From positions 1 through 39,002 of the forward strand of contig CAYIKG010000001.1 of the NCBI GenBank assembly GCA_964363955.1: a stretch of DNA of 39,002 bases, read 5' to 3'. The notes below the pieces were generated by a model. It did no database searches. It saw nothing but the letters and a program-made list of their open reading frames with translations, and was not told where the DNA came from. Position numbers and translations under genes: made by a program. This document shows positions 1-36,804 of this stretch, in pieces; positions within the stretch are counted from its first letter, which is position 1; each line of letters opens with the position of its first letter. Origin of the DNA: an uncultured archaeon. GTDB lineage: Archaea > Aenigmatarchaeota > Aenigmatarchaeia > GW2011-AR5.

Positions 1-1106
1 GTTTTGTTATTGATGGGTACGCAGACAATGCAAAAATTGATTGGGCTTCAGTGGAAGAGGCAGCAGAAACACTGACAAGATTCCTTGACGCAGTTGTCAT
101 CTGGAATGAACTTCTGAATCCACTGGAAAAGCAGAGAAAAGCAGCTTCTGAGACACGAAGATTGGGCATTGGCGTCATGGGCATTGCAGACATGCTGAAC
201 CAATTGGGGATAAGCTATGACAGTGACGAAGCTATAGAATTATGCGAAAAAATAGCCAAGAAAATTGCTAATGCAACTTACAGGGCATCAGCAGAACTTG
301 CAGAAGAAAAAGGACCTTCGCCTATATTTGAATACGAGGCGTACAGCAGGTGCCCATTCTTCAGGGAAGCACTGGACATAGAAACAAAAGAGCTGATACG
401 CAAGAAAGGCTTGAGAAACATTGCAATACTTTCTATTGCACCGACAGGGACGATAAGCAGCGTTGTGCTTGGCTATAAAAATGGCAACAAAAATTACATA
501 GGGGTGTCTGGCGGCGTAGAGCCGGTCTTTGCATTGTTTTATACCCGACGCTCTGAAAGTTTTGGCAACAGGACATTCAAGATATTCCATTCGACTGTGG
601 CTGCGTACATTGACAAGTATGGCCTTATGGAAAAAGCGCAGGAGAGTAATGAAGAAGAACTGAGAAAAATATTGCCAAAACATTTTTTCCGGACAGCACA
701 TTATATCGAGCCAGAACAACGTGTGCGCATACAAGGCATGTGGCAAAGATACATTGACCATTCTATCTCAAGCACGGTCAATTTGCCAGAAGACATAGAT
801 CCTGAGACAATAAGCAATATTTACATGAATGCGTGGAAACACGGCTTGAAAGGTATAACAATATATCGAGCTGGATCGAGGTATCCTATACTGAGCACAG
901 AAAGTGAGCGCAATGAATTCCATCAATACAAAGAAAAGCAGTTCGAAGTCCATATAAACGGGACAAGTGCACTGATGCACGCTGACAATTTCATAACAAT
1001 GCCAAATGGGACACTAACAACGGTCTATCATGCAATAAAAGATGGTACATTAAAAATAGAAGAAGGGGAAAGAGAAATAATTAAAGCCGTAGCGGAATTG
1101 CAATAA
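1..1106 (+). CDS. nrdJ: Class II (adenosylcobalamin-dependent) ribonucleotide reductase paralog, C-terminal part; the 5' end lies upstream of the window
   Basis: Frame 3 is open from nt 3. RRLGIGVMGIADML, ILSIAPTGTISS, GVSGGVEPVFA, STVNLPED and GLKGITIYRAGSR are colinear with the complete NrdJ at 2694-4796. It ends at TAA 1104-1106 with no C-terminal Cys pair. Confidence 0.9.
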   Translation, partial: FVIDGYADNAKIDWASVEEAAETLTRFLDAVVIWNELLNPLEKQRKAASETRRLGIGVMGIADMLNQLGISYDSDEAIELCEKIAKKIANATYRASAELAEEKGPSPIFEYEAYSRCPFFREALDIETKELIRKKGLRNIAILSIAPTGTISSVVLGYKNGNKNYIGVSGGVEPVFALFYTRRSESFGNRTFKIFHSTVAAYIDKYGLMEKAQESNEEELRKILPKHFFRTAHYIEPEQRVRIQGMWQRYIDHSISSTVNLPEDIDPETISNIYMNAWKHGLKGITIYRAGSRYPILSTESERNEFHQYKEKQFEVHINGTSALMHADNFITMPNGTLTTVYHAIKDGTLKIEEGEREIIKAVAELQ

Positions 1107-2693: not shown

Positions 2694-4796
2694 ATGCTTA
2701 CGCAGATAAGAAAACGCGATGGAAGGATTGTGAAATTCCGGAAAGAAAAGATAGCAGCAGCGATACTCAAAGCAGTAGAAGCTAGTGGCGAAAGTGATGA
2801 GAAATTGTCCAATGAAATTGCAGAAAAGGTAATAAAAGAATTTGAGCACAAAGGCAAAAAGTTCATTCCGAGTATTGAGCAAATACAAGACACCATCGAG
2901 AAGGTGCTTGTAGACGAAGGTCATGCAAAAATAGCTAAGGCGTATATTCTTTATCGCCAGAAACGCGCTGAAATACGCGAGGCAAAAGCCATTATAGGCA
3001 TCAAGGATGATTTGAAGCTCAGTATAAATGCTGTAAAGGTTCTTGAGCGCCGTTATCTTCGCCGTGACGAGAACGGCAAGGTCGTTGAAACACCTTCTGG
3101 CATGTTCAGGCGTGTGGCAAAAGCCATTGCACAGGCTGATCTGCTTTACGGCAGCGAAGAAGATGTAAAAAAAAGTGAGAAGGAATTTTATGACATTATG
3201 AGCAGCCTGGAATTTCTTCCAAATTCGCCTTGCCTGATGAACGCAGGTCTGCACGACAATCAGTTGGCTGCGTGTTTTGTCCTTCCTGTCGAAGATTCGA
3301 TGAAAGGTATTTTTGAGACATTGAAGCATGCTTCCTTGATCCATATGACTGGCGGCGGTACGGGTTTCAGCTTTAGCAAGATCAGACCTCGCGGCGATAT
3401 TGTCCATTCTTCAGGCGGAATGGCATCAGGTCCTATGAGCTTTATCCGTGTTTACAATGCAGCGACTGAAGCAACAAAAGAAGGCGGACGTCGGCGCGGC
3501 GCAAACATGGGCATTCTTCGCGTAGACCACCCAGACATCATTGAATTCATAATTTCAAAGGAAAAGGATACATCATTGGCCAATTTCAACCTGAGCGTGG
3601 CGCTAACAGACGAGTTCATGCACAAGGTCGAGGCAGATGAAGATTATAATCTGACAAATCCGCGTACAGACGAGATGGCAAACCGCCTGAACGCGCGGCG
3701 TGTCTTTGATCTGATCGTGACAATGGCATGGAAATGCGGTGATCCTGGAATAATTTTCATCGACCGCATAAATAACAGCAACTCAAACCCGACGCCGGCA
3801 ATAGGGCGCATAGAAGCAACAAACCCTTGCGGCGAAGCTCCATTGCTGCCATACGAATCGTGCATACTTGGCAGCATAAATCTTTCTAAAATGTTAGAGG
3901 ACAAGAAAATTGATATAGACTGGAATAAATTGCGAAAGACTGTTCACATGGCTGTTCATTTTCTTGACAATGTAATTGACGCGAACAAATACCTGCTCAA
4001 AGAAATAGGTAATGTAACAAAAGCGAACAGGAAGATAGGCCTTGGCGTCATGGGATTTGCTGATATGCTGATCAAGCTTAGTATTCCCTATAACTCTGAG
4101 GAAGCGGTAAAGATAGCAGATCGTCTTATGCACTTCATCAACGAGGAGGCAAAAAAAGCTAGTGTAGAGCTTGCGAAGCAACGCGGATCATTTCCCAATT
4201 TTGAGCGCAGCATATGGCCGGGAAAAGGCTACAAGATGCTTAGAAATGCGACAACAACTACCATTGCGCCGACAGGGACGATAAGCATCGTCGCTGATTG
4301 CAGCAGCGGCATCGAGCCATTGTACGCTGTGTCTTACATACGCACTATTATGGATACTACAGATCTCATAGAAGTAAACAAGCAGTTTGAGGCAGTCGCG
4401 CACGAACATGATTTTTACAATGAAACCCTTATGCGCATTATTGCCAGAAAGGGGTCAGTACAAGACATAAAAGAAATACCTGATGAGATCAAGAAGCTAT
4501 TTGTTACAACACATGATATTGCTCCAGAATGGCATGTTCTTGTGCAGGCAGCTTTTCAAAGGCATACAGACAATGGTGTTTCAAAAACAGTTAATTTCCC
4601 GCACGAAGCTTCACTTGAGGATGTGGAAAAGACATACGTGCTTGCTTACAGACTTGGCTGCAAGGGAATTACCATATATCGCGATCGCAGCAAGGAAGAG
4701 CAGGTATTGCATACCCAATTGCTTGCAAAGAAAACAAAGTCAGAGGAATTTGACGAGCGTTTGCTCGAGTTAACACAAGCCTGCAAAACATGTTAG
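2694..4796 (+). CDS. nrdJ: Class II (adenosylcobalamin-dependent) ribonucleotide reductase with N-terminal ATP-cone
   Basis: 700 aa. ATP-cone start (IRKRDGRIVKFRKEKI), NPCGE active-site loop, TIAPTGTIS, GCKGITIYRDRS, and a terminal ACKTC Cys pair. Confidence 0.95.
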   Translation: MLTQIRKRDGRIVKFRKEKIAAAILKAVEASGESDEKLSNEIAEKVIKEFEHKGKKFIPSIEQIQDTIEKVLVDEGHAKIAKAYILYRQKRAEIREAKAIIGIKDDLKLSINAVKVLERRYLRRDENGKVVETPSGMFRRVAKAIAQADLLYGSEEDVKKSEKEFYDIMSSLEFLPNSPCLMNAGLHDNQLAACFVLPVEDSMKGIFETLKHASLIHMTGGGTGFSFSKIRPRGDIVHSSGGMASGPMSFIRVYNAATEATKEGGRRRGANMGILRVDHPDIIEFIISKEKDTSLANFNLSVALTDEFMHKVEADEDYNLTNPRTDEMANRLNARRVFDLIVTMAWKCGDPGIIFIDRINNSNSNPTPAIGRIEATNPCGEAPLLPYESCILGSINLSKMLEDKKIDIDWNKLRKTVHMAVHFLDNVIDANKYLLKEIGNVTKANRKIGLGVMGFADMLIKLSIPYNSEEAVKIADRLMHFINEEAKKASVELAKQRGSFPNFERSIWPGKGYKMLRNATTTTIAPTGTISIVADCSSGIEPLYAVSYIRTIMDTTDLIEVNKQFEAVAHEHDFYNETLMRIIARKGSVQDIKEIPDEIKKLFVTTHDIAPEWHVLVQAAFQRHTDNGVSKTVNFPHEASLEDVEKTYVLAYRLGCKGITIYRDRSKEEQVLHTQLLAKKTKSEEFDERLLELTQACKTC

Positions 4797-6611: not shown

Positions 6612-7751
6612 ATGCACATATCAGAGCGAGAGAAAGAGCTTCCGGACGCAGTGATCGGCGAGCTGATAAAGTTGGCTGCTGAAAAGAGGGGCATTGTTTC
6701 TCTTGGCCACGGTGAGCCGGATTTTGACCTGCCGAAGCCACTGCAAGCTTATGCGAAAAAGATTGCTGGAAAATACAACCATTATGCTCCACCCGGTGGG
6801 GTAAAGGAATTAAGAGAGGGTATTGCTAAAAAATTAAGAAAAGATAACAAAATCCGTGCTGACCCTGAAAACGTAGTAGTCACGTGCGGCTCGCAGGAGG
6901 CGCTCATGCTGGCTGTCGCGTGCTCGTGCGACGTTAGCGAGCAGATAATCATCCCGAACCCGAGCTTTCTTGGCTACCTTCCAACATTGGAATTACTCGA
7001 TGCTTTCCCAGTATTTCTAGAATTAAAGGAAGAAGATAAATGGCAAATAAACCCGGATATTTTAAAAAAATTAATTGACAAGAAAAAAACAACAGCAATA
7101 CTCATAAATACGCCGGCCAATCCAACAGGCACTGTGCTTGACAAAAAGATTTTAGAGGAAATAGCCGACATAGCAGTGGAGCATGACCTTTATGTGTTCA
7201 GCGACGAAGCATACGAGAAAATAATTTATGAAAAAAAGCACACGTCCATTGGCAGCTTTAATGGCATGGAAGATTATGTTGTAACGTTCCAGACATTCTC
7301 GAAGAGCTATGCAATGGCTGGCTATCGCTTAGGCTACGCAGCTGCACCGCCGAAGCTGGCGCAAGCGATTACAAAGACGCACGTATACTCGACGATCTGC
7401 GCGCCTACGTTCTCGCAGATGCTCGGCATAAAGGCACTTTCATTGCCAAAGAAATATATTACAAAGATGGTCGGCGAATACAAAAAAAGAAGAGATTATA
7501 TCCATAAACAGCTGAATGAAATAGGCCTGCGTACAATAAAGCCAGAAGGTGCCTTCTACGCGTTTTCAAATATTGGCAAGAAAAACAGCCAGAAATTCGC
7601 GAAGCAATTGCTCGCAAAAGCTCATGTTGCTGTAGTACCTGGCAGCGAGTTCGGAAGCCACGGCGAATCATTCATCAGATGCTCTTATGCAACAGGACTC
7701 GATAAAATAAAGATTGCTTTGAATAAAATGGAGAAATTCCTAAAGCATTAA
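6612..7751 (+). CDS. Class I/II PLP-dependent aminotransferase (aspartate aminotransferase-like)
   Basis: 379 aa. INTPANPTG, SDEAYEK, and SFSKSYAMAGYRLGY (PLP lysine). Confidence 0.9.
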   Translation: MHISEREKELPDAVIGELIKLAAEKRGIVSLGHGEPDFDLPKPLQAYAKKIAGKYNHYAPPGGVKELREGIAKKLRKDNKIRADPENVVVTCGSQEALMLAVACSCDVSEQIIIPNPSFLGYLPTLELLDAFPVFLELKEEDKWQINPDILKKLIDKKKTTAILINTPANPTGTVLDKKILEEIADIAVEHDLYVFSDEAYEKIIYEKKHTSIGSFNGMEDYVVTFQTFSKSYAMAGYRLGYAAAPPKLAQAITKTHVYSTICAPTFSQMLGIKALSLPKKYITKMVGEYKKRRDYIHKQLNEIGLRTIKPEGAFYAFSNIGKKNSQKFAKQLLAKAHVAVVPGSEFGSHGESFIRCSYATGLDKIKIALNKMEKFLKH

Positions 7752-8269
7752 TGTTTTTCTGCAATTCTATATACATGGTTACAGCTTTATCAAATGCAGA
7801 AACTGAAAGTCAACTAAGGCAATTGCACCAAGATTTTGGTAACTCTCCGTTTCGTTCAAGAAACAATGAAATTTTTGATCGTCTTTCTGAATTAGGTTAT
7901 TTGACTCGTGCACCATTGGGATCTAATCCACATGATCCAGTTGAATATAGATTAAAACCTGATGTAATTGAATCAATCTCTTCGAACTTCAGATGGGAAG
8001 AAAGGCCTTATACTTATGCAGGGCCTACTAATAGACGCCAAAGTTTATTTGAGCCATATAAACTAGAATTTGTTTCCTTGTTTTCAGGTAATGTTTTTAC
8101 TTATATGGAATTTTCTCAATTTCTTGATTATAAGGGAATAGAAATGCCTAATCCTGCATCATTTCTATCCGAATTGTTCGGTGGCGGTTTTTTAAAAAGA
8201 CGGCGCCTTTATGTAAACGGTAACAGTAGATACGAATACGTGATTATCGAAAAGGCTTTTGGTGGTTGA
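7751..8269 (+). CDS. Hypothetical 172-aa protein, possibly two winged-helix-like halves
   Basis: Its ATG overlaps the aminotransferase TAA (taATG), and its TGA is followed directly by the lplB ATG. IFDRLSELGYLTR...EYRL and FLSELFGGGFLKRR...YEYVI look winged-helix-like, which is weak evidence. Confidence 0.55.
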   Translation: MFFCNSIYMVTALSNAETESQLRQLHQDFGNSPFRSRNNEIFDRLSELGYLTRAPLGSNPHDPVEYRLKPDVIESISSNFRWEERPYTYAGPTNRRQSLFEPYKLEFVSLFSGNVFTYMEFSQFLDYKGIEMPNPASFLSELFGGGFLKRRRLYVNGNSRYEYVIIEKAFGG

Positions 8270-17358: not shown

Positions 17359-17521
17359 ATACACTGTGTAAAATATATACTAGAGTAAATAAATATATAT
17401 ATCCCAGAACATAAATGCTTATAAGATATTATTGTTACTATAAAGTAATGAATAGCCAAATAAGATGCCGGGATGTTTATTACCAACTGTAATAACTTAG
17501 GTGAAAAGGGATGAAAATACG

Positions 17522-18154
17522 ATGAACTATTATCAGGACTATTATCAAATACTTGGTGTGCATAGAAATGCAACAGAAAAAGAGATAAAAAAGGGTTATC
17601 TTCAGAGAGCTTTCAGGTACCATCCTGACCGCAATCAATCACCAGACGCCAACGAGAGAATGAAAGAAATAAACATTGCTTATGAGACTTTATCCGATCC
17701 TAAAAGAAGAGCAGATTATAATAGACGATCTTATTCTGGTTCAACAACTAGAAGTCATGCTGAAGCACGATCAGCTAGTCCAAATTACACATCAAGACAT
17801 TATACAGGACAAGAATACGAGTTTCGAGTACCTGATGCCATGGAGATGGTAAGAAAAGCTAAACAGAAAGTAACTGAAGTGCCTGGTGTATTGCGAAGGA
17901 ATTTGACACGTGAAAGAATGCTTGCATATTCTCCGCTAATGGGCGGTGTTGCAGTGAGTGGTTTGGCCGCACTAGGTTTGGAATTATTCAGATCTGATGA
18001 AGTATACAGTATAATTGATAATTCGAGGGTAAGTGCTGAAACTATGCGTTTACAAAATGTCGCTTATAGTACTATTGCTGGAACTGCATCTTCTGTCGGC
18101 TTCTATATGATAAGAAGAAAGAGAAGATCGAAAAACAATAAACTTTCTAAATGA
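17522..18154 (+). CDS. J-domain protein with two predicted C-terminal hydrophobic segments
   Basis: DYYQILGV...YRKLAxxYHPDRN-type J domain (YHPDRNQSPDANERMKEINIAYETLSDPKRRADYN). Hydrophobic stretches GGVAVSGLAALGL and IAGTASSVGFYMI. ATG 17522 is preferred over the ORF-track GTG at 17501. Confidence 0.8.
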   Translation: MNYYQDYYQILGVHRNATEKEIKKGYLQRAFRYHPDRNQSPDANERMKEINIAYETLSDPKRRADYNRRSYSGSTTRSHAEARSASPNYTSRHYTGQEYEFRVPDAMEMVRKAKQKVTEVPGVLRRNLTRERMLAYSPLMGGVAVSGLAALGLELFRSDEVYSIIDNSRVSAETMRLQNVAYSTIAGTASSVGFYMIRRKRRSKNNKLSK

Positions 18155-29819: not shown

Positions 29820-30086
29820 CTATCCATATCTCTTCTTGAGAACGGCTAGTATGAATACTGCGATTGCAAGAAGCGAATTGGTGATGTATATGAAGGGATC
29901 TGCTTTGATTAAACCGTAGGCAATCCAGAAAAGATCATTTGCTATTCCTATCAGTATAGTGAACCACGCTAAATCTTTTGTTTTTTTTGTCTTCCAAGAG
30001 GTATAAACCTGCGGAAAGAAAAGGCTTGCGGCTGTAATGGAGCCAAATAAACCAATTACAGATACGAGCTCAGCCATAAACATCAA
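29820..30086 (-). CDS. SemiSWEET / PQ-loop family transporter (3 transmembrane segments)
   Basis: 88 aa. FFPQVYTSWKTKKTKDL PQ-loop motif, three hydrophobic helices, family-typical length. Confidence 0.8.
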   Translation of the reverse strand: MMFMAELVSVIGLFGSITAASLFFPQVYTSWKTKKTKDLAWFTILIGIANDLFWIAYGLIKADPFIYITNSLLAIAVFILAVLKKRYG

Positions 30087-30871
30087 ACATAAATCTCGAT
30101 TACGTCGCCGTCTTCAAGCTTATAATTTAATCCTGCCTGCACAAACTTGTTGCCGCGCATTATGCGCGCAAAACGGAAGTTCTTGACAAAGTCTTTGTGC
30201 ACACGCTCTGCAAAGTCACGGACAATAGAGTTTTTTTCCAATGCCATAGGAGTACCAGTTTTTTTAGCATAAACGATTATCAAGCCAAGCATGCCCCATA
30301 TGTCTTTCCTTATCTGCTGCAGATCGTTTTTCCACGGATTTGCAAAAAGATAATTCTGCTTTATGTAATGCGCTTCTAAAAGTTCTTTCAGGTGCTGCTT
30401 ATCACTGTCATTCCTATAAGCCAAAACAACTGCATCACTATTTCTCGCGATGCTGATGTATTCTGGCAAAAATGTAGATGGTATCTCGATGAGCTGTAGT
30501 TTGATGCCATTATAATCCATTGTGCCTATTGCTGGCCTTGTCGTTGTGTAAGCATTCTCTGAAATTTTTGGCTCTGCCCTTGTAAGCTTTGACAAGAGCC
30601 ACGATTTTCCAGAATTTGTCAGGCCAATAATGCATATTTGTGCCTCGCCTTCTTTTTTGATGCCTTCTTTGTGTGCGCCGCCTTTTTTCGATGTTTCTTT
30701 CCTTAGTTTTGCAAGCCTCGATTTGAGCTGTGCGTACATCTTCTCGCTGCCATGATGCCTTGGCAATAAGCGGATCATATCTTCTAAAGCGAGCACTTTC
30801 TCTTCATGCGTCTTGGCACTCTTGAATCGCTCTTCTGCCTTGAAATATTCGACTGGGGCGTTGACTGGCAT
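30083..30871 (-). CDS. DRG/Rbg-like GTP-binding protein with TGS-like C-terminus and degenerate G3/G4 motifs
   Basis: N-terminal helical LKSRLAKLRKE, G1 GLTNSGKS, G2 TTT. IEIPS replaces DxxG, there is no NKxD, and the C-terminus is LEDGDVIEIYV. Confidence 0.75.
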   Translation of the reverse strand: MPVNAPVEYFKAEERFKSAKTHEEKVLALEDMIRLLPRHHGSEKMYAQLKSRLAKLRKETSKKGGAHKEGIKKEGEAQICIIGLTNSGKSWLLSKLTRAEPKISENAYTTTRPAIGTMDYNGIKLQLIEIPSTFLPEYISIARNSDAVVLAYRNDSDKQHLKELLEAHYIKQNYLFANPWKNDLQQIRKDIWGMLGLIIVYAKKTGTPMALEKNSIVRDFAERVHKDFVKNFRFARIMRGNKFVQAGLNYKLEDGDVIEIYV

Positions 30872-30914
30872 GATAAATAAAGCATGAGAAAGGAAATAAA
30901 GTTATTTGCAATGG

Positions 30915-33863
30915 TTATGCTTGACTGATGCAGAATGCGCCGTAGCTCCTGCACACAAGAGTTTGCCCTGCGTCACACGGTCTGTAGCATTTTTTGCCGC
31001 ATATTATTGAATCTGAAGATTTGCATGTTATAGGGGTATCTTTGCCGCCTCTTTCTGCTTCTTCTACGCAGTAGGCGCCGTAGCTTCTGCATACAAGAGT
31101 CTGTCCTGATGCACAAGGCCTGTAGCATCTCTTATTGCAGATTATTGAATCTGGAAGATTGCACGTTATCGGCAGTGTCGTTGCAGTAGTTGAACTTGTC
31201 GTCGTGCTAGTTGTCGTAGTCGTCACGCAAGTTCCGACGCAGTCAGTGCAGCCTTCTGGAATATCGCATATAGATCCGTCTGGGCATTGTACACCATCAA
31301 TGCCGCCGCAGGCAATAGGTGTTGTAGTTGTCGTTGTAGTCGTGCATTCGCCATTTGTGCACGTCCTTCCAAGAGGGCAGTGTGATAACGGGCTCCACTC
31401 AAGGCAATCGTCATTATCAAAGTAGCCGCATATTCTGAAATCATCTCCACTGCAGCCAGCTTGCAGAAAAGATGGGCATTCGTCTGAGCAACCACCAGAC
31501 GTTGTCGTGCTTGTAGTTGATGATGATGTGGAGCTACTCGAAGTTGACGTACTCGAGCTGCTTGATGTTGAGCTTGAAGTACTTGAACTTGACGATGTTG
31601 AACTCGTTGAGCTGCTTGTAGTAGTTGACGACGTTGTCGTACTCGAACTTGTCGTCGATCCAGTGCAGCTTGGGCTTTCAACGCATTGGACCTGGATATC
31701 GCATCCGCTGTTGCATATCCTTGTTCTTAGCAGCTGATTAGGCAGGCAATAGTCTCCGCATACTGCGTCTGTCCATGGAGTGCAGGAACAACCGCCTGGC
31801 TGTGTTGAAGGTGTCCCACTTGCTTGGCAAATCCCGCCAGAGCACGTTCCAGAGGGGCAGTTCACAACAGGACTCCACTCAAGGCAATTATCGCCATCAA
31901 GATTGCCGCAAACCATGAAACCATTGCCACTGCATTGGAGTTGCCCCCATGATGAACATTCATTCGAGCAAGCAGCTGGCTGGGTTGTTGTAGTGCTGCT
32001 GCTTGTTGTGGTGCTGCTTGTCGTTGCACTGCCAGCTACAACTGTAAGCTTATTTTTAACACAGTTGTTATTTTCATCTGATTCAGCAACTGCATTGTTG
32101 ATATCTGCACAAATTTCGAATTCATGTACTCCTACAGCCGCAGTCCATATATTGGACCAAGTCTCAAATTCATATCCATTGACTGCCAAAGAGCCTGTTG
32201 AAGTTACTTGCTGGATATTCCATGACCCATCAGAACCTATGTCAAGCCTGAAGCGCGTTGTTGACGAGCCAGCAGCAGCACCAGCATTTTTTACAATGCC
32301 AGAGAAAGTCATTTTACTGCCTGCTACGGGATTTAGCGGCTCTGTTGCACGCGGCTCTATAGTCAAGTCAGGTTTGAATATTGTTGTGACTGTCGTTACA
32401 GTTGTTGGAGTAGTTGTTGTCGAATCAATAACGCAATAGCATTGTGTATTAGGATATACACTTGAACAGCTGTTAGTGCCTGTATCGCCTGCAGAATTGT
32501 GCTGCCATCTTTTTATGTCCCCTCCTTGTATATTGACCCCTCTGATTTCACCATAAGACAATGGCCAGCACATGGCTTTCCAAAGATTCTCGCCAGTCAT
32601 TGATTTGGCGACTAATGCCTGACCTCCGCACGCTGTGTGGCATCTTGTAGCTTCCTGTGCAGGAGGGGCGGTTGGTGTTGTTGTGGTGGTTGTCGTTGGT
32701 GTGCTAGTTGGTTTGCAGCAAACACCAGAGCTAGTAGATGTTCCGCCAGAGAATAGCTGGCATGTTCCAGATTTGGTTTCAGTGCTTAAGCAAGAAGATT
32801 TGCATGTATAACCAGAAGTGCAAGACTGTGCTGTTGTGCTTTTTGCTTTACAGCCATAAACAGGGAGACCGCCAGAAGATCCTGTCTGAGCCCATTCACA
32901 ACCTGTTACACTAGTACAAGCTGATTGCGAGCATGATCCACAGTTTGATGATGAACAGCCAGGTTGTGTTGGAGTTGTAGCAGATACAGTCAGGCTTCGT
33001 GATCCAGATTCTCCGGAATCTGCAGTGTCGCCATCGCCGTTCCTATCAAAACATGCGTAGTAAGTATAAGTTCCTGTGGATGAAGGTGCTTGGAATCTAG
33101 CAGAACAAGCTTGCCCCTCTGATATGCAGGCTATTACTTGATTCCCTGAACAGGAGCCTTGTCTTATATCGATCCTTTTTCCATTGCAATTCATTAGATT
33201 TGTGGCAAAAAATGTGACTGTGGCACTTGGTGCAACAGAAACTGAATCAAGTGTTAATAAGATATTGCCTGAACATGTCGTTGGTGTGCTAGTTGGTTTA
33301 CAACAAACACCATTAGCTGTACCTTGAGGGCCGATAAGAGGACATCTTTTGTTGAATTCTGTAATTTGGCCACTTGGGCAAGCAGCACCAGCTGTGCATG
33401 TATAAGTAGAAGCACATTGTTGGGTTGGAGTTGTTGTGGTGGTTGTGGTTCCGCCTATACATCCGCTAGTAGCACTGCACGACTGCCCAGTCCTTAATGT
33501 GCACTTGCTCAAGCTACACGTGCCAGCTGAATTGCATGCAGACGAACCATAATAACATGTGCCACTACTAACAGTTCCGGAAACAGGGCAGTAATCTTTA
33601 TACCCGCATACTGGTCGGGAGTTATCATAATAGCTATAAAAGCAAAAGTTATTGACCCTACAATAGGCGGGTCCGTTGCATACTGAAGGCCCACTGCATG
33701 GATTACTACTCTGTGGAAGCCCTATTTGAAATCCGGTAATCGGCGATATGCCATAGCTCCCGTAGAAGAACTTGGTTAATTCACTTGCAAAGTCAATTGG
33801 AGCAGCGAATGCGAGAGATGATAAAATGATGGATGCTAGTATAATTTTAGCTGATTTGGCCAT
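30915..33863 (-). CDS. 982-aa secreted or cell-surface modular protein, Cys-rich with poly-Thr/Ser linkers and a CARDB-like domain
   Basis: N-terminal signal/anchor (MAKSAKIILASIILSSLAFAAP). Cys-rich throughout, with three pairs of duplicated Cys-rich modules, T/S linkers, and a CARDB-like segment (KPDLTIEP...GSKMTFSGIVKNAG...ESDENNNC). Confidence 0.8.
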   Translation of the reverse strand: MAKSAKIILASIILSSLAFAAPIDFASELTKFFYGSYGISPITGFQIGLPQSSNPCSGPSVCNGPAYCRVNNFCFYSYYDNSRPVCGYKDYCPVSGTVSSGTCYYGSSACNSAGTCSLSKCTLRTGQSCSATSGCIGGTTTTTTTPTQQCASTYTCTAGAACPSGQITEFNKRCPLIGPQGTANGVCCKPTSTPTTCSGNILLTLDSVSVAPSATVTFFATNLMNCNGKRIDIRQGSCSGNQVIACISEGQACSARFQAPSSTGTYTYYACFDRNGDGDTADSGESGSRSLTVSATTPTQPGCSSSNCGSCSQSACTSVTGCEWAQTGSSGGLPVYGCKAKSTTAQSCTSGYTCKSSCLSTETKSGTCQLFSGGTSTSSGVCCKPTSTPTTTTTTTPTAPPAQEATRCHTACGGQALVAKSMTGENLWKAMCWPLSYGEIRGVNIQGGDIKRWQHNSAGDTGTNSCSSVYPNTQCYCVIDSTTTTPTTVTTVTTIFKPDLTIEPRATEPLNPVAGSKMTFSGIVKNAGAAAGSSTTRFRLDIGSDGSWNIQQVTSTGSLAVNGYEFETWSNIWTAAVGVHEFEICADINNAVAESDENNNCVKNKLTVVAGSATTSSTTTSSSTTTTQPAACSNECSSWGQLQCSGNGFMVCGNLDGDNCLEWSPVVNCPSGTCSGGICQASGTPSTQPGGCSCTPWTDAVCGDYCLPNQLLRTRICNSGCDIQVQCVESPSCTGSTTSSSTTTSSTTTSSSTSSTSSSSSTSSSTSSSSSTSTSSSSTSSSTTSTTTSGGCSDECPSFLQAGCSGDDFRICGYFDNDDCLEWSPLSHCPLGRTCTNGECTTTTTTTTPIACGGIDGVQCPDGSICDIPEGCTDCVGTCVTTTTTSTTTSSTTATTLPITCNLPDSIICNKRCYRPCASGQTLVCRSYGAYCVEEAERGGKDTPITCKSSDSIICGKKCYRPCDAGQTLVCRSYGAFCISQA
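30918..31175 (-). repeat. Tandem duplication of a ~40-aa Cys-rich C-terminal module
   Basis: PITCNLPDSIICNKRCYRPCASGQTLVCRSYGAYC (31044-31175) versus PITCKSSDSIICGKKCYRPCDAGQTLVCRSYGAFC (30918-31037). The two copies are clearly alignable at nucleotide level. Confidence 0.85.
31497..31661 (-). repeat. 55-codon Ser/Thr-only low-complexity tract
   Basis: Encodes STTSSSTTTSSTTTSSSTSSTSSSSSTSSSTSSSSSTSTSSSSTSSSTTSTTTS. The DNA consists of degenerate short tandem units (gtNgaNga on the plus strand). Confidence 0.85.
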
Positions 33864-33885
33864 ATTCTTAATTTCATTTGAACGG

Positions 33886-33897
33886 TATATATAATTA
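33886..33897 (-). promoter_or_regulatory. TATA-like box (taattatatata on the minus strand) upstream of the large surface-protein gene
   Basis: Its centre is about 28 nt upstream of ATG 33863. Confidence 0.4.
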
Positions 33898-34059
33898 CTG
33901 GTGAGATTACCTTAACTAAGCGGATGATAAACATCTCCAAAATTTCATTTTTGTAGGTTTGCGACCATTTCTTACTGTGGTAGGGCCACAGTTCTGGCAC
34001 AACATAGTAATCACCAATTACATGTTTGCCAAGGCCCTTCCTTATAAATCATCCTTTAA

Positions 34060-34203
34060 GTTAATAGAATCATACAACTTGATAAAAGAATTGTAAAAAA
34101 ATTAAAGGAGATTAAGGAGTATCCAGAACAAACATATCAAACATATAATACGCTTATTGAAAAGATGATTGAAACATTCAAAAGAGCAAAGGATAATGCT
34201 TAA
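34060..34203 (+). pseudogene. Possible start-less relic of a short VapB/RHH-type antitoxin-like gene
   Basis: 47-codon open frame, VNRIIQLDKRIVKKLKEIKEYPEQTYQTYNTLIEKMIETFKRAKDNA*, bounded upstream by TAA 34057. It has no ATG/GTG/TTG start before codon 36. The pattern resembles small archaeal putative antitoxins, which is weak evidence recalled from memory. Confidence 0.25.
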
Positions 34204-34248
34204 TCCTGGCAAGACTTCCAAACACGTTCGTGTCTATAAGCTTCCTTG

Positions 34249-35115
34249 TTAATTATATCCTAATTCCCTTAGCAAATCTGGCGGAAGTTTTTCTACTGGA
34301 ACTAAAACATGAGTGTTTGGCGGCAATATGCCAGTCTGCAAAAGCCTCTCTTCAACATAACCAGTATTTCCAAGTCCTGATGTTTCGTATGCATTTCTTG
34401 CCAGTTTTACGTATTCTCCTCCCCTGCTTGTGTCATCTTGTGCAATCTTCTGCAGTGCATCACCAAAACCAACAAGACTTAGTCCAGCACATGGAGCACC
34501 TTGAAAAAACCATTCAGGAACCACAGCATCCCCTTTAAGCGCAACTATGTCCGCAACTATACGTTCTTCCAGTTTCTGTAGATATAACTCCAAGGCGCTT
34601 ACAGGGTCTGGTACAAGTTTTCCTGAAACCAGCATCCTTCTTTGAGCTCTTATAGGATCATCTGAAATCTTCCAATTTGTAGTTCCCATATTGATCGTGT
34701 CACCACGTTCACGAGCTGGTCTGGCCGGGCCTAGGTACAGGGTTGCGGCATTTTGATGGCCAGAAGCATAGGCATATGCTACATCTTCTTGGCTAATTAC
34801 GTAAGGCATTTCAGCAACATGGTTTTCTGCCGATTCTTTTAAACTGATACCTAGCCAACGTGATCTAAGAGCTCCTGAAAGTGAATGCGCTGCCCCAGCC
34901 TCTTCATTTAGACCTGACAGAATATTCTCAAGGTCTCTTCTGTAACGATTAAAATTATTTTTAAATTGGTCACGCAACCCGCTTTCATATTCTTCAGCGG
35001 TTTGCCTGCTCGGTGGATATGATTCCATGCGTCTAAATTCTTCAACGGCTGCTCTATACGCGTCGAATGTGATTACGCCTTCTGATTCAAACAGTCTTCT
35101 TAGGTTATCTGCCAT
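34249..35115 (-). CDS. Hypothetical 288-aa protein, paralog 2 of a tandem pair (ORFan)
   Basis: ATG 35115 is preceded at 4 nt by GGAAGTGAT (plus-strand atcacttcc, 35120-35128); the alternative GTG is at 35124. The C-terminal ~170 aa align with the upstream paralog. Confidence 0.75.
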   Translation of the reverse strand: MADNLRRLFESEGVITFDAYRAAVEEFRRMESYPPSRQTAEEYESGLRDQFKNNFNRYRRDLENILSGLNEEAGAAHSLSGALRSRWLGISLKESAENHVAEMPYVISQEDVAYAYASGHQNAATLYLGPARPARERGDTINMGTTNWKISDDPIRAQRRMLVSGKLVPDPVSALELYLQKLEERIVADIVALKGDAVVPEWFFQGAPCAGLSLVGFGDALQKIAQDDTSRGGEYVKLARNAYETSGLGNTGYVEERLLQTGILPPNTHVLVPVEKLPPDLLRELGYN

Positions 35116-35130
35116 TTTTATCACTTCCGA

Positions 35131-35997
35131 TTAAGTGCGCCCAATGCTAATTATGGGCGTTGGCGGCAAATCTCCGATCTGTCGGCGTCTATTTACGACA
35201 TATGGAGTATCTTCAAGTCCGGAAGAATTATACCCCCTGAGTGCCAATCGCAAATAATCTCCCCCATCTGATGGCATAGTTTGGGCAGCTTTTACCGAAG
35301 CATCGGCAGAGCCCACATAGCTTAAACCAATTTCTGGACCAAGATGAAAATATTCTCCGAGATTTGGATTACCGTCTTGTAAAGTAACTATGCGATCTCC
35401 TACACTTTCGTCCAAAGCATCAAGATATGCCCTTACAGCACTTACAGCATCTTTGCTTCTTATCGGCCTATCTGAAATTGGAAAAAAATCATCTATATGT
35501 CTACCTGTTGAAAGAGAATTTAAGCTAGCACGAACGTTTACATATGGTTCTAGCTCTATACCCTGAACATTATGCGAATCGCGACTTTGGTTTCCAAGCG
35601 GATCCATGACCAATCTCGCTACATTAACATATCCAGAAGCGTAAGGGGTAACATAGAGAAAGTATACACCCCCATGTAACACAAAAGCACCTGGACTGGG
35701 TTTACGTGCCGCATCTGCTAAATCAGATCCTTGCACATCATGGATTAAGCGAGCTGCAACAGAAGCGGCATGTCCAGAATAACCGGTAGATGCGGGGTTT
35801 GTCGTCAATATTTGTCGAACATTTCTAAGTGATTCTTTGAAAGAAGGTAATTTTCTATAATGAAAGGAGAATTCTTCATCTGATAACGAAACCATATCTG
35901 GCGGTGGTTCATATGTGGTATAAAAGTCAGTTGCAAACAATACTCCTAAAGGACCATTTCCAGTTGTTCCATTCGTGCCGTTTGTCATATGTACCAT
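35131..35997 (-). CDS. Hypothetical 288-aa protein, paralog 1 of a tandem pair (ORFan)
   Basis: Clean 867-nt ORF with an A/T box (aaagtatttaag, minus strand) about 30-40 nt upstream. It shares YASG, ISD(R/D)PIR, GLS.VG, GG(D/E)Y..LA and SGL motifs with 34249-35115. Confidence 0.75.
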   Translation of the reverse strand: MVHMTNGTNGTTGNGPLGVLFATDFYTTYEPPPDMVSLSDEEFSFHYRKLPSFKESLRNVRQILTTNPASTGYSGHAASVAARLIHDVQGSDLADAARKPSPGAFVLHGGVYFLYVTPYASGYVNVARLVMDPLGNQSRDSHNVQGIELEPYVNVRASLNSLSTGRHIDDFFPISDRPIRSKDAVSAVRAYLDALDESVGDRIVTLQDGNPNLGEYFHLGPEIGLSYVGSADASVKAAQTMPSDGGDYLRLALRGYNSSGLEDTPYVVNRRRQIGDLPPTPIISIGRT

Positions 35998-36237
35998 CTA
36001 AATTTCACTACTAACAAGTAGCTTCTCAAGCTTAAATACTTTTCTATCGGGCAACTATTCTGTTAACTATAATTATTATGTTGCTTCTACTGCACTATTT
36101 ATATATTTTAAGTTTTGTATGCAATTCTTATTGGTTATCTCTAAAACCTGAATGCTGATTTATGTCCAAATTTTTATATAGTTTCATAGAAATTTGACAA
36201 GAATAAAGCTTAGCATTCAAGTTTTATGGGTTACCGT

Positions 36238-36804
36238 CTAAAGCTTTGCTTCAAATACAACAAGCTCTTCCCAAGGAACTTTCTTTCTTGTAAGCACTGC
36301 ATATTTGTAGCCATTTTTTTCGATAAGAGCAGTAATTTCTTTCTCCTGCGCTGTCAGGGTTGAAGCGAGAAAGATTATTTTCCCATGCTCTTTCAGGTGG
36401 CTCTTTGCATCTTTCAGAAATCGCTCTATAATATCAATTCCTCCAGACCATTGCAGATCGTATGGCCCGAATGGCAAATAAGGCGGGTTGAAAACAATCA
36501 GGTCAAATTTATCTCTTATATTTTCAAACAGATTAGAATGAATTACAGTTATGTTAATTCCGTTTATTGCCGCGTTCTTTTCTGCTATAGCAATTGCTTC
36601 TGGATTTATGTCAGCTGCAGTAACAATTGCTTTATTTCTTGCCATGAGTATGGCTAAGAATCCAGAGCCACATCCCATGTCAAGGACATTTTTGCCATTC
36701 GTGCTGATTTTTTCTATGATTTCTGCAAGTGTCAGAGAATCTTCTCTGGGAAAATAGACAGAATTTGGTACTTCAACAACGATATCCTTGTGAAAGAATT
36801 GCAT
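36238..36804 (-). CDS. HemK/PrmC-related (Mtq2-like) SAM-dependent methyltransferase
   Basis: 188 aa. VLDMGCGSGFLAI SAM motif and the FNPPYLP (NPPY) substrate motif. Confidence 0.85.
   Translation of the reverse strand: MQFFHKDIVVEVPNSVYFPREDSLTLAEIIEKISTNGKNVLDMGCGSGFLAILMARNKAIVTAADINPEAIAIAEKNAAINGINITVIHSNLFENIRDKFDLIVFNPPYLPFGPYDLQWSGGIDIIERFLKDAKSHLKEHGKIIFLASTLTAQEKEITALIEKNGYKYAVLTRKKVPWEELVVFEAKL

What the first reader, a model, noticed from the sequence alone, without database searches (positions are those of the whole stretch)
34249..35997. Tandem pair of paralogous 288-aa ORFans: best candidate for an undescribed two-gene module
- Two minus-strand genes lie 15 nt apart (6 nt with the alternative GTG start at 35124), each exactly 867 nt when the downstream one starts at its SD-led ATG at 35115.
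- N-terminal halves have diverged: MVHMTNGTNGTTGNGPLGVLFATDFY... versus MADNLRRLFESEGVITFDAYRAAVEEF....
- C-terminal ~170 aa are clearly homologous:
  - YASGY / YASGH;
  - ISDRPIRSK / ISDDPIRAQ;
  - VSAVRAYLDALDESVGDRIVTL / VSALELYLQKLEERIVADIVAL;
  - GLSYVGSADASVKAAQ / GLSLVGFGDALQKIAQ;
  - GGDYLRLALRGYNSSGLEDTPYV / GGEYVKLARNAYETSGLGNTGYV;
  - G.LPP.
- There is no signal peptide, transmembrane segment, nucleotide-binding loop or catalytic motif that I can name.
- G+C appears higher than in the AT-rich flanks (for example 34/60 in 34681-34740).
- The first gene has its own promoter-like box and the second has a strong SD motif, so they look co-expressed, as a heteromer would be.
- They sit next to the giant surface protein and are bracketed by long AT-rich gaps with relics.
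Basis: partly seen in the sequence, partly recalled or inferred. Interest (0 to 1): 0.7.

Follow-up and report, generated by a model that had tools for sequence, protein, structure and literature searches.

The report
Paired genes of unknown archaeal family
Two adjacent genes in a small groundwater archaeon are real, diverged copies of a rare protein family found only in DPANN archaea; the family matches no known family or solved structure, and its function remains unknown.

Summary
Two minus-strand genes, U (35131-35997) and D (34249-35115), each encode 288 aa. They lie 15 nt apart in the same frame and are true paralogs (BLASTP E=9e-20; both match the family profile full-length).

They are not strict ORFans. 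An exhaustive profile search of 1.84 billion proteins found 26 clusters. Every named one is a 'hypothetical protein' from Aenigmarchaeota or Woesearchaeota genomes.

- **No known relative:** Pfam, NCBIfam, PHROGs, PADLOC, PDB sequences, phage, plasmid and viral-contig searches all gave nothing.
- **Structure:** AlphaFold2 models are confident (pTM 0.85 and 0.83). They share one mostly helical architecture and match nothing in PDB or BFVD (best E about 0.4, TM below 0.25).
- **Pairing:** tandem paralog pairs recur in only 3 of 11 loci. In 3 others the gene is tightly coupled to an unrelated second unknown family.
- **Evolution:** among related Woesearchaeota the gene always sits between DnaG, RIO1 and FtsZ. 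It is 30-40% identical where FtsZ is 91-93%.
- **Sequence features:** no polar residue is conserved family-wide, and there is no transmembrane segment.

Best guess, at low confidence: a soluble, non-catalytic protein that assembles with the co-translated product of the next gene. Function is unknown.

The parts
35131..35997 (-). Gene U: upstream paralog, 288 aa from the ATG at 35997. The NCBI call P0033 is 285 aa, so it probably starts at Met4.
   Evidence: The ORF is listed. It scores 228.7 bits full-length against the family HMM. The AF2 model has pLDDT 79.9 and pTM 0.83. It keeps the PYASGY, D.VSA..YL, GLSYVGSADA, GY.SSG..T.YV and GDLPP motifs. Relative to D, residues 152-169 are a low-confidence insertion where D has two beta-hairpins, and the C-terminal tail is missing. 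P0033 is hidden in the database under a 115-aa representative.
34249..35115 (-). Gene D: downstream paralog, 288 aa from the ATG at 35115 (alternative GTG at 35124).
   Evidence: The ORF is listed and is identical to P0001. It scores 275.6 bits against the family HMM. The AF2 model has pLDDT 86.9 and pTM 0.85. Its closest relatives are P0002 to P0005 at 36-38% identity.
35116..35130 (-). A 15-nt spacer carrying the Shine-Dalgarno-like GGAAGTGAT (35128-35120). U and D are in the same frame, separated by one TAA.
   Evidence: Sequence; translation through the junction. The role as a ribosome-binding site is inferred.
36031..36045 (-). Candidate archaeal BRE/TATA box (AGAAAAG TATTTAAG), about 38 nt upstream of the U start codon.
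   Evidence: Read from the sequence. This is inference only; no transcript data exist.
35998..36237 (.). Upstream AT-rich intergenic gap (GC 0.28) between the MTS-type methyltransferase gene (36238-36804, -) and U.
   Evidence: No family relic was found here.
33864..34248 (.). Downstream AT-rich gap (GC 0.33) between D and the CARDB surface-protein gene (30915-33863, -).
   Evidence: No family relic was found here. It contains a 47-codon ORF without a start codon on the + strand.

Best explanation
**Shown**
- U and D are two intact, diverged tandem paralogs (about 28% identity overall, 42% over the C-terminal 121 aa).
- They belong to a rare protein family of about 250-350 aa. It is seen only in DPANN archaea (Aenigmarchaeota- and Woesearchaeota-type genomes, mostly from groundwater).
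- Both are predicted with confidence to adopt the same compact, mostly helical architecture with short beta-hairpins. That architecture matches nothing in PDB or BFVD.
- The proteins are acidic, soluble and lack a TM segment.
- The only near-universal residues are small or aromatic ones: G216, A239, Y243, S246, G247 and V254.

**Inferred**
- The two genes are transcribed together from a TATA/BRE-like box upstream of U. D is translated from its own Shine-Dalgarno motif 15 nt after U's stop codon.
- The protein is most likely non-catalytic: a structural, scaffold or adaptor subunit that works as an oligomer with the product of the gene immediately downstream.
- In this genome, and in L006 and L010, that partner is a diverged paralog, so a U/D hetero-oligomer would form. 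In other lineages it is an unrelated second unknown family.
- The pair arose by tandem duplication. It is one variant of a single-gene family, not an obligatory two-gene system.
- The cellular process served is unknown.
For: - **Real genes and paralogy:**
- **Family size:** 26 clusters with E<=1e-3 among 1.84e9 representatives.
- **Taxonomy:** the only names given are 'hypothetical protein' from Cand. Aenigmarchaeota, Woesearchaeota or 'archaeon' MAGs. Neighbouring genes are archaeal housekeeping genes.
- **Shared confident architecture:** D has pLDDT 86.9 and pTM 0.85. U has pLDDT 79.9 and pTM 0.83, with the same order of helices and the last hairpin.
- **No structural match:**
- **No family match:**
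- **Non-catalytic hint:** only G247 is invariant. G216, A239, Y243, S246 and V254 are at least 90% conserved. D219 of clade 1 is replaced by K, H, F or A in the Woesearchaeota clade.
- **Soluble and acidic:** pI is about 5-6, GRAVY is negative and no TM segment is present.
- **Tight coupling to a second gene in 6 of 11 loci:**
  - window: +15 nt with a Shine-Dalgarno-like motif;
  - L006: +3 nt;
  - L010: 8-nt overlap with a Shine-Dalgarno-like motif;
  - L014 and L016: ATGA overlaps;
  - L003: +7 nt.
Against: - No interaction, expression or oligomeric state was tested. AF-Multimer was not available.
- Five of 11 loci show no recognisable partner. A single copy therefore suffices, or the partner is encoded elsewhere.
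- 'Non-catalytic' rests on the absence of conserved polar residues in a 26-28 sequence alignment. Clade-specific polar residues (Y116, S118, N122, D170, D219, T251 in clade 1) could still form a ligand site.
- U has lost two hairpins and the C-terminal tail, so it might be drifting rather than acting as a dedicated partner.
Confidence: 0.4

Rival explanations
1. Conflict system. The family gene plus its variable downstream gene would form a rapidly evolving cytoplasmic two-component system, for example an antiviral defence, a toxin/immunity-like pair or a symbiont-host conflict system. The second gene would be swapped between lineages.
For: - Among related Woesearchaeota loci, FtsZ is 91-93%, DnaG 71-78% and RIO1 64-70% identical. 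The family gene at the same position is only 30-40% identical.
- Copy number varies between 1 and 2, and one locus has a C-terminal-only version.
- The downstream gene differs between loci: a paralog, the partner family or an unrelated unknown gene.
- Codon usage is atypical, with low GC3.
- In the window, the pair plus the CARDB gene interrupt a TGS-GTPase/methyltransferase neighbourhood that is contiguous in the related MAG L007.
Against: - No PADLOC hit.
- No nuclease, NTPase or other effector motif. No conserved polar site.
- No mobile-element genes or flanking repeats.
- Absent from phage, plasmid and viral-contig collections.
- The stable position beside housekeeping genes in Woesearchaeota argues against a mobile defence island.
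- A neighbouring unknown 422-438 aa gene also evolves quickly (41-48% identity). The family is the fastest in the block but not an extreme outlier.
Confidence: 0.12
2. Lineage-specific accessory factor of a core informational process. It would be a partner, substrate or regulator of the RIO1-type kinase (small-subunit ribosome maturation), or would be linked to FtsZ or DnaG.
For: - In all five Woesearchaeota-type loci with more than 2 kb of flank (L003, L006, L009, L010, L013) the family gene is co-directional with RIO1, separated only by a paralog or by the partner-family copies. It lies in the DnaG-FtsZ interval.
- Its position relative to RIO1 flips between upstream and downstream, yet adjacency is kept.
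- In the window and in L007, a TGS-domain GTPase and an MTS-type methyltransferase lie nearby.
Against: - The five loci come from closely related genomes (FtsZ above 90% identical), so synteny may be inherited rather than selected.
- RIO1 adjacency is absent in the window, L001, L007, L008, L011 and L014.
- A factor bound to conserved machinery would not be expected to be the fastest-evolving gene in the block.
Confidence: 0.1
3. Only D is functional. U would be a redundant duplicate that is degenerating, so there is no heteromer.
For: - U scores lower against the family HMM than D (228.7 against 275.6 bits).
- It lacks the two hairpins (a low-confidence insertion at 152-169) and the C-terminal tail.
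- It has no close orthologue other than its own fragment.
- In L010 the upstream copy is almost unrecognisable, at 28 bits.
Against: - U is an uninterrupted ORF of exactly the same length as D.
- It retains every core motif and gives a confident model with pTM 0.83. That would not be expected of a decaying pseudogene.
- U is the promoter-proximal gene.
Confidence: 0.15
4. A small-molecule-binding protein or an enzyme of a new fold.
For: - Clade 1 conserves polar residues at helix termini: PY-A-S-G..N, D170, D219, Y243, S246 and T251.
- The weak Foldseek hits are dominated by ligand-binding helical sandwiches. They are not significant.
Against: - These polar residues are not conserved across the whole family.
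- The Foldseek hits have probability of 0.13 or less and TM below 0.25.
- No metabolic gene is consistently adjacent.
Confidence: 0.08

Closest known systems
Unnamed 'hypothetical proteins' of DPANN MAGs (MBI2971670.1 and MBI2578527.1, Cand. Aenigmarchaeota; MBI4438651.1 and MBI3051647.1, Cand. Woesearchaeota; MFH0875004.1, 'archaeon')
   Same: They are true homologues: same length class, same motifs and the same profile. P0007 (MBI2971670.1) lies in a genome that shares the window's neighbouring genes, with the TGS GTPase 59% and the MTS methyltransferase 46% identical.
   Different: None is characterised. Identity to D is only 21-46%. Most occur as single copies rather than as a pair.
Translin and nuclear-receptor ligand-binding domains (top Foldseek hits)
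   Same: They are all-alpha or mostly alpha proteins of similar size.
   Different: The matches are not significant: E of 0.5 or more, probability 0.13 or less, TM 0.10-0.23, rmsd 13-22 A. There is no sequence similarity. This is not a fold match.
Heteromeric complexes built from diverged tandem paralogs (for example archaeal proteasome alpha/beta, prefoldin alpha/beta, thermosome subunits; named from general knowledge)
   Same: The architecture is similar: two diverged paralogs of equal length, adjacent, co-directional and translationally coupled.
   Different: There is no homology. The pairing is facultative (3 of 11 loci), whereas those complexes have fixed subunit sets. No oligomer has been shown here.
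Bicistronic toxin/antitoxin or toxin/immunity pairs (named from general knowledge)
   Same: A fast-evolving first gene is tightly coupled to a variable, lineage-specific second gene, with ATGA-type overlaps.
   Different: There is no known toxin or antitoxin domain and no DNA-binding antitoxin. The proteins are much larger than typical type II toxins. There is no PADLOC hit. The second gene can be a paralog of the first.

Membership tests
New DPANN family defined here (profile of alignment A2/A5) | Full-length match to the family profile | tested here: met
   D scores 275.6 bits and U 228.7 bits, each as one domain spanning the HMM. The exhaustive search recovers D at 6.4e-136. U appears only through its 115-aa cluster representative P0012, at 2.3e-21.
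New DPANN family defined here (profile of alignment A2/A5) | Motif set: N-terminal xLxxLF; PY(A/S)SG..N; D..SA(L)..YL; G(L)SLVG.GDA (AMCLLG.A.G in the Woesearchaeota clade); A..AY..SG...T.YV | tested here: met
   Present in both U and D.
New DPANN family defined here (profile of alignment A2/A5) | Shared predicted architecture | tested here: met
   The order of helices and the last hairpin is the same in both models, with pTM 0.85 and 0.83.
Any curated protein family (Pfam-A, NCBIfam, PHROGs, PADLOC) | Score above the family's curated cut-off, or a consistent hit across members | tested here: not met
   The best hits have E of about 0.005 or worse, lie far below the cut-offs, and each is seen in only 1 of 26-28 members.
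Any solved structure (PDB) or predicted viral structure (BFVD) | Foldseek E<=1e-3 or TM>=0.5 | tested here: not met
   Zero hits at E<=1e-3. The best E is 0.44-0.8 and TM is 0.23 or lower. PDB sequence and profile searches were empty.
Viral or mobile-element protein (for example a capsid) | Homologues in viral contigs, phage or plasmid records, or mobile-element neighbours | tested here: not met
   No relative was found in IMG/VR with three pattern sets, nor in phage or plasmid records by tblastn. Neighbours are housekeeping genes.
   Pairs occur in 3 of 11 loci: the window, L006 and L010.
Bicistronic unit with a coupled partner gene (generalised module) | A second gene within about 15 nt or overlapping, belonging to a recurring family | tested here: inconclusive
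   This holds in 6 of 11 loci: a paralog in 3 and the partner family in 3. The other 5 loci have unrelated or no small downstream ORFs.
Type II toxin-antitoxin system | A known toxin fold plus a DNA-binding antitoxin, with autoregulated small proteins | tested here: not met
   No Pfam or PADLOC TA domain was found in U, D or the partner family. Toxicity is not testable with these tools.

The most novel reading that the evidence does not exclude
The family is the founding component of a DPANN-restricted, rapidly evolving bicistronic system with a previously unseen fold. A conserved first subunit would pair with an interchangeable second subunit, either a diverged paralog as here or the unrelated 'GYH / WGA..DVLPHA' partner family. 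Such a system might be a new kind of intracellular conflict or defence system, or a lineage-specific regulator tied to RIO1 and cell division in ultra-small archaea.
Probability: 0.15. Interest if true: 0.7.

Novelty: categorically new. Interest (0 to 1): 0.42.

Why it matters
DPANN archaea have tiny genomes, yet a large share of their genes have no assigned function. A family that stays intact across two DPANN phyla probably does something specific to their biology. This one also folds with high predicted confidence into an architecture with no match in PDB, and it is repeatedly coupled to a second gene.

The family is small, with 26 clusters, and the proteins are soluble and about 30 kDa. 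That makes it a tractable target for structure determination and pull-downs.

The novelty here is by exclusion. No relative was found by sequence or by fold, but nothing yet demonstrates a new mechanism. Families like this are common in uncultivated lineages, so the finding is a solid lead rather than a surprise.

Tried and rejected
**Homology and structure searches that found nothing**
- Sequence-to-family searches against Pfam, NCBIfam, PHROGs and PADLOC. I ran these on U and D and on all 26-28 family members.
- PDB sequence and profile searches.
- Foldseek of both models against PDB, and of D against BFVD.

**Collection scans**
- The word-indexed homologue search missed almost everything. 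U had no hit because its database copy is hidden under a 115-aa representative.
- Genome, metagenome and viral contig scans recovered only loci already known, plus L016. Two scans failed because the alignment lacked a sufficiently conserved stretch.
- tblastn against phage and plasmid records found nothing.

**Ideas tested and dropped**
- The partner family (A8) as a cryptic paralog of the main family: rejected by hhalign, probability below 1%.
- An NJ tree to date the duplication: star-like, with support below 60 for most of the small clades listed and below 30 for every grouping that places U or D. I cannot say whether the pairs are ancient or independent. Neither U/D nor the L006 pair are sisters.
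- Island boundaries: no flanking direct repeats, no tRNA genes and no Rfam hits.
- Relics of the family in the AT-rich gaps: none.
- The sigma-70 promoter and intrinsic-terminator scan is not informative for an archaeon and showed no excess over shuffles.
- Two literature searches found nothing on this family.

**Not attempted**
- A fused or multimer AF2 run.
Full report
**1. Observation**

Each is 867 nt including the stop codon and encodes 288 aa. They are 15 nt apart, or 6 nt if the GTG at 35124 is used.

Translation through the junction gives ...SIGRT*SEVIKMADNL. The two genes therefore share one reading frame, interrupted by a single TAA. A Shine-Dalgarno-like GGAAGTGAT sits at 35128-35120.

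BLASTP of the two products gives 42% identity over 121 C-terminal residues, E=9e-20.

**2. Host and setting**

The window carries ordinary chromosomal genes:
- ribonucleotide reductase, corrinoid adenosyltransferase and lipoate ligase and synthase;
- a 2-oxoacid dehydrogenase complex, the archaeal-type FBPase (FBPase_3) and an ADP-forming acyl-CoA synthetase;
- Ogg, NAD kinase, glutamate dehydrogenase and aldehyde dehydrogenase;
- a TGS-domain GTPase, an MTS-type methyltransferase, an archaeal-type Glu/Gln-tRNA synthetase and a PAP2 phosphatase.

There are no tRNA genes and no Rfam hits. An identical copy of the locus is on an ENA contig named Hain_H51_01um, a name that points to a groundwater 0.1-um filter fraction.

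The nearest genome with shared neighbours is a groundwater Candidatus Aenigmatarchaeota MAG. Against it, the TGS GTPase is 59% and the methyltransferase 46% identical. The host is therefore most likely an Aenigmarchaeota-like DPANN archaeon; this is an inference.

**3. The family**

Curated libraries and PDB sequences give nothing for either protein.

The word-indexed search found only one relative of D (P0002, 37% identity) and none of U. U is in the database as P0033 (285 aa) but is hidden under a 115-aa cluster representative.

An exhaustive HMMER profile search of 1.84 billion representatives found 26 proteins with E<=1e-3, 20 with E<=1e-10 and 11 with E<=1e-30. They are 250-350 aa long, apart from a few fragments. 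The only names attached are 'hypothetical protein' from Cand. Aenigmarchaeota, Cand. Woesearchaeota or 'archaeon' MAGs.

The alignment (A2) shows these conserved features:
- an N-terminal xLxxLF motif, present in both U and D;
- PY(A/S)SG..N;
- D.(V)SAL..YL;
- a hydrophobic G(L)SLVG.GDA helix;
- A..AY..SG...T.YV.

Only G247 is invariant. G216, A239, Y243, S246 and V254 are at least 90% conserved. The acidic D219 of clade 1 is replaced by K, H, F or A in the Woesearchaeota clade. No polar residue that could serve catalysis is universal.

The proteins are acidic (pI about 5-6), hydrophilic and lack a TM segment.

No relative was found in viral contigs, in phage or plasmid records or in the PADLOC defence library.

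**4. Structure**

With the family alignment, AlphaFold2 gives D a confident model: pLDDT 86.9 and pTM 0.85. It is mostly helical with three short beta-hairpins.

U gives pLDDT 79.9 and pTM 0.83, with the same order of helices and the last hairpin. A low-confidence insertion at 152-169 replaces the first two hairpins, and the C-terminal tail is absent. The 'diverged N-terminal halves' are therefore still homologous.

Foldseek found no hit with E<=1e-3 in PDB for either model, or in BFVD for D. The best hits are translin and nuclear-receptor ligand-binding domains, with probability 0.13 or less and TM 0.23 or lower. The fold is unmatched within the limits of those libraries. AlphaFold DB was not available.

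**5. Do pairs recur?**

I recovered 11 distinct loci.

| State | Loci |
|---|---|
| Tandem paralog pair | window; L006 (P0023+P0019, 3-nt gap, same frame); L010 (very diverged upstream copy at 28 bits, 8-nt ATGGTTGA overlap with a Shine-Dalgarno-like motif) |
| Single copy | L001, L003, L007, L008, L009, L011, L013, L014, L016 |

L013 holds only the C-terminal half.

In three of the single-copy loci the next gene belongs to a second, unrelated unknown family. It is about 170-200 aa, with motifs N.L...YL, GYH and WGA.I.DVLPHA.
- L003 carries three tandem copies, starting 7 nt downstream.
- L014 has an ATGA overlap.
- L016 has an ATGA overlap.

This partner family is unrelated to the main family by hhalign, with probability below 1%. 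It has no convincing PDB relative and is not present in the window.

In 6 of 11 loci, then, the family gene is the first cistron of a tightly coupled unit. The second cistron is either a paralog or a partner-family member.

**6. Neighbourhood and rate**

In the five Woesearchaeota-type loci (L003, L006, L009, L010, L013) the gene always lies between DnaG (Toprim) and FtsZ. It is co-directional with a RIO1-type kinase, either upstream or downstream of it.

Across the four full-length loci (L003, L006, L009, L010), pairwise identities are as follows:

| Gene | Identity |
|---|---|
| FtsZ | 91-93% |
| DnaG | 71-78% |
| RIO1 | 64-70% |
| FeS-assembly protein | 62-71% |
| Unknown 422-438 aa gene | 41-48% |
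| This family | 30-40% |

It is the fastest-evolving gene of the block.

In the window, the pair and a 982-aa CARDB, Cys/Thr-rich surface protein sit between the TGS GTPase and the MTS methyltransferase. These two genes are separated only by a response regulator in the related MAG L007, where the family gene lies about 5 kb away next to TrmB. No flanking repeats mark an insertion. The CARDB adjacency is unique to the window.

The G+C of the pair (0.428) is ordinary for coding DNA here. GC3 (0.27 and 0.29) and codon usage are atypical.

An NJ tree is star-like. U is not sister to D, and the L006 copies are not sisters. Support is too low to date the duplications.

**7. Interpretation**

Shown:
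- The genes are real and are full-length paralogs.
- They belong to a rare DPANN-restricted family.
- The predicted fold is confident and unmatched in PDB and BFVD.
- The products are soluble and acidic, with no universal catalytic residue.
- A second gene is frequently translationally coupled.
- The family evolves quickly.

Inferred:
- The pair is co-transcribed from a BRE/TATA-like box (36045-36031).
- The protein has a non-catalytic structural or adaptor role.
- It assembles with the product of the downstream gene, here as a U/D hetero-oligomer.

I put about 0.4 on this composite statement. The descriptive part is close to certain; the mechanistic part is weak. The rivals are:
- a conflict or defence-like two-gene system (0.12);
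- a RIO1 or cell-cycle accessory factor (0.10);
- U as a decaying duplicate (0.15);
- a ligand-binding protein or enzyme (0.08).

**8. Novelty and verdict**

No sequence or structural relative exists among characterised proteins. By exclusion this is a new family with an unmatched predicted fold. It cannot be filed under any known kind.

That is not evidence of a new mechanism, and unknown families are abundant in DPANN genomes. The most useful new lead is the recurrent coupling to an interchangeable second gene, together with the rate contrast against highly conserved neighbours.

Noticed in passing
L003 10995-12760; L014 5153-5671; L016 2679-3266: A second unknown family of about 170-200 aa (motifs N.L...YL, GYH, WGA.I.DVLPHA) lies immediately downstream of the main-family gene in three independent loci. 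L003 carries three tandem copies; L014 and L016 show ATGA overlaps. It is unrelated to the main family by hhalign, has no Pfam or convincing PDB match, and is absent from the window.
   Followed up: partly
L003, L006, L009, L010, L013 (Woesearchaeota-type loci): A conserved block runs archease, two unknown genes, DnaG(Toprim), [family gene and RIO1 in either order], FtsZ, FeS_assembly_P. FtsZ is 91-93% identical across the four full-length loci (L003, L006, L009, L010), while the family gene is only 30-40% identical. Copy number and order relative to RIO1 vary between loci.
   Followed up: partly
window 34249-35997 and L006 7092-8843: In both tandem pairs the two paralogs are in the same reading frame, separated by one TAA stop plus 5 codons (window) or 1 codon (L006). 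This could be chance (about 1 in 9), a split former fusion, or a site of occasional readthrough.
   Followed up: no
window 34060-34203 (+): A 47-codon ORF without a start codon, convergent on gene D: VNRIIQLDKRIVKKLKEIKEYPEQTYQTYNTLIEKMIETFKRAKDNA*. It looks superficially like a ribbon-helix-helix protein but has no ATG, GTG or TTG start and no Pfam hit. It may be a relic or a non-canonical small gene.
   Followed up: partly
window 30083-36804 compared with L007 13521-15359: The TGS-GTPase and MTS-methyltransferase genes are separated only by a response-regulator gene in the related Aenigmatarchaeota MAG. In the window they are separated by about 5.3 kb holding the CARDB surface-protein gene and the U/D pair. 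No flanking repeats were found.
   Followed up: partly
window 34249-35997: GC3 of U and D is 0.27 and 0.29, against about 0.35-0.48 for most genes in the window. Their codon-usage distance is among the highest. Three other unannotated or poorly conserved ORFs share this bias: 1335-1919, 7751-8269 and 17501-18154.
   Followed up: partly
window 51-1106 (+) and 2694-4796 (+): Two ORFs hit the ribonucleotide-reductase barrel domain. The first covers only the C-terminal part (profile positions 250-523). It lies upstream of a 700-aa RNR with an ATP-cone, and a DNA-alkylation-repair gene sits between them. It may be a second, truncated or interrupted RNR gene near the contig start.
   Followed up: no
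window 30915-33863 (-): A 982-aa secreted-looking protein has a hydrophobic N-terminus, one CARDB domain, many Cys-rich modules and long Thr/Ser linkers. Its internal DNA repeats include a 120-nt unit at 30915-31172. It is not associated with the family in any other locus.
   Followed up: no
L013 655-1089: P0021 is a 144-aa version containing only the C-terminal half of the family (HMM positions 136-272), next to RIO1 and FtsZ. No N-terminal half is detectable upstream. P0006 (160 aa) is similar. The conserved C-terminal half may be a separable domain.
   Followed up: partly
L010 1-2695: The RtcB RNA ligase gene is interrupted by an intein carrying a LAGLIDADG homing endonuclease. In L003 a free-standing LAGLIDADG gene sits between RtcB and archease.
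   Followed up: no
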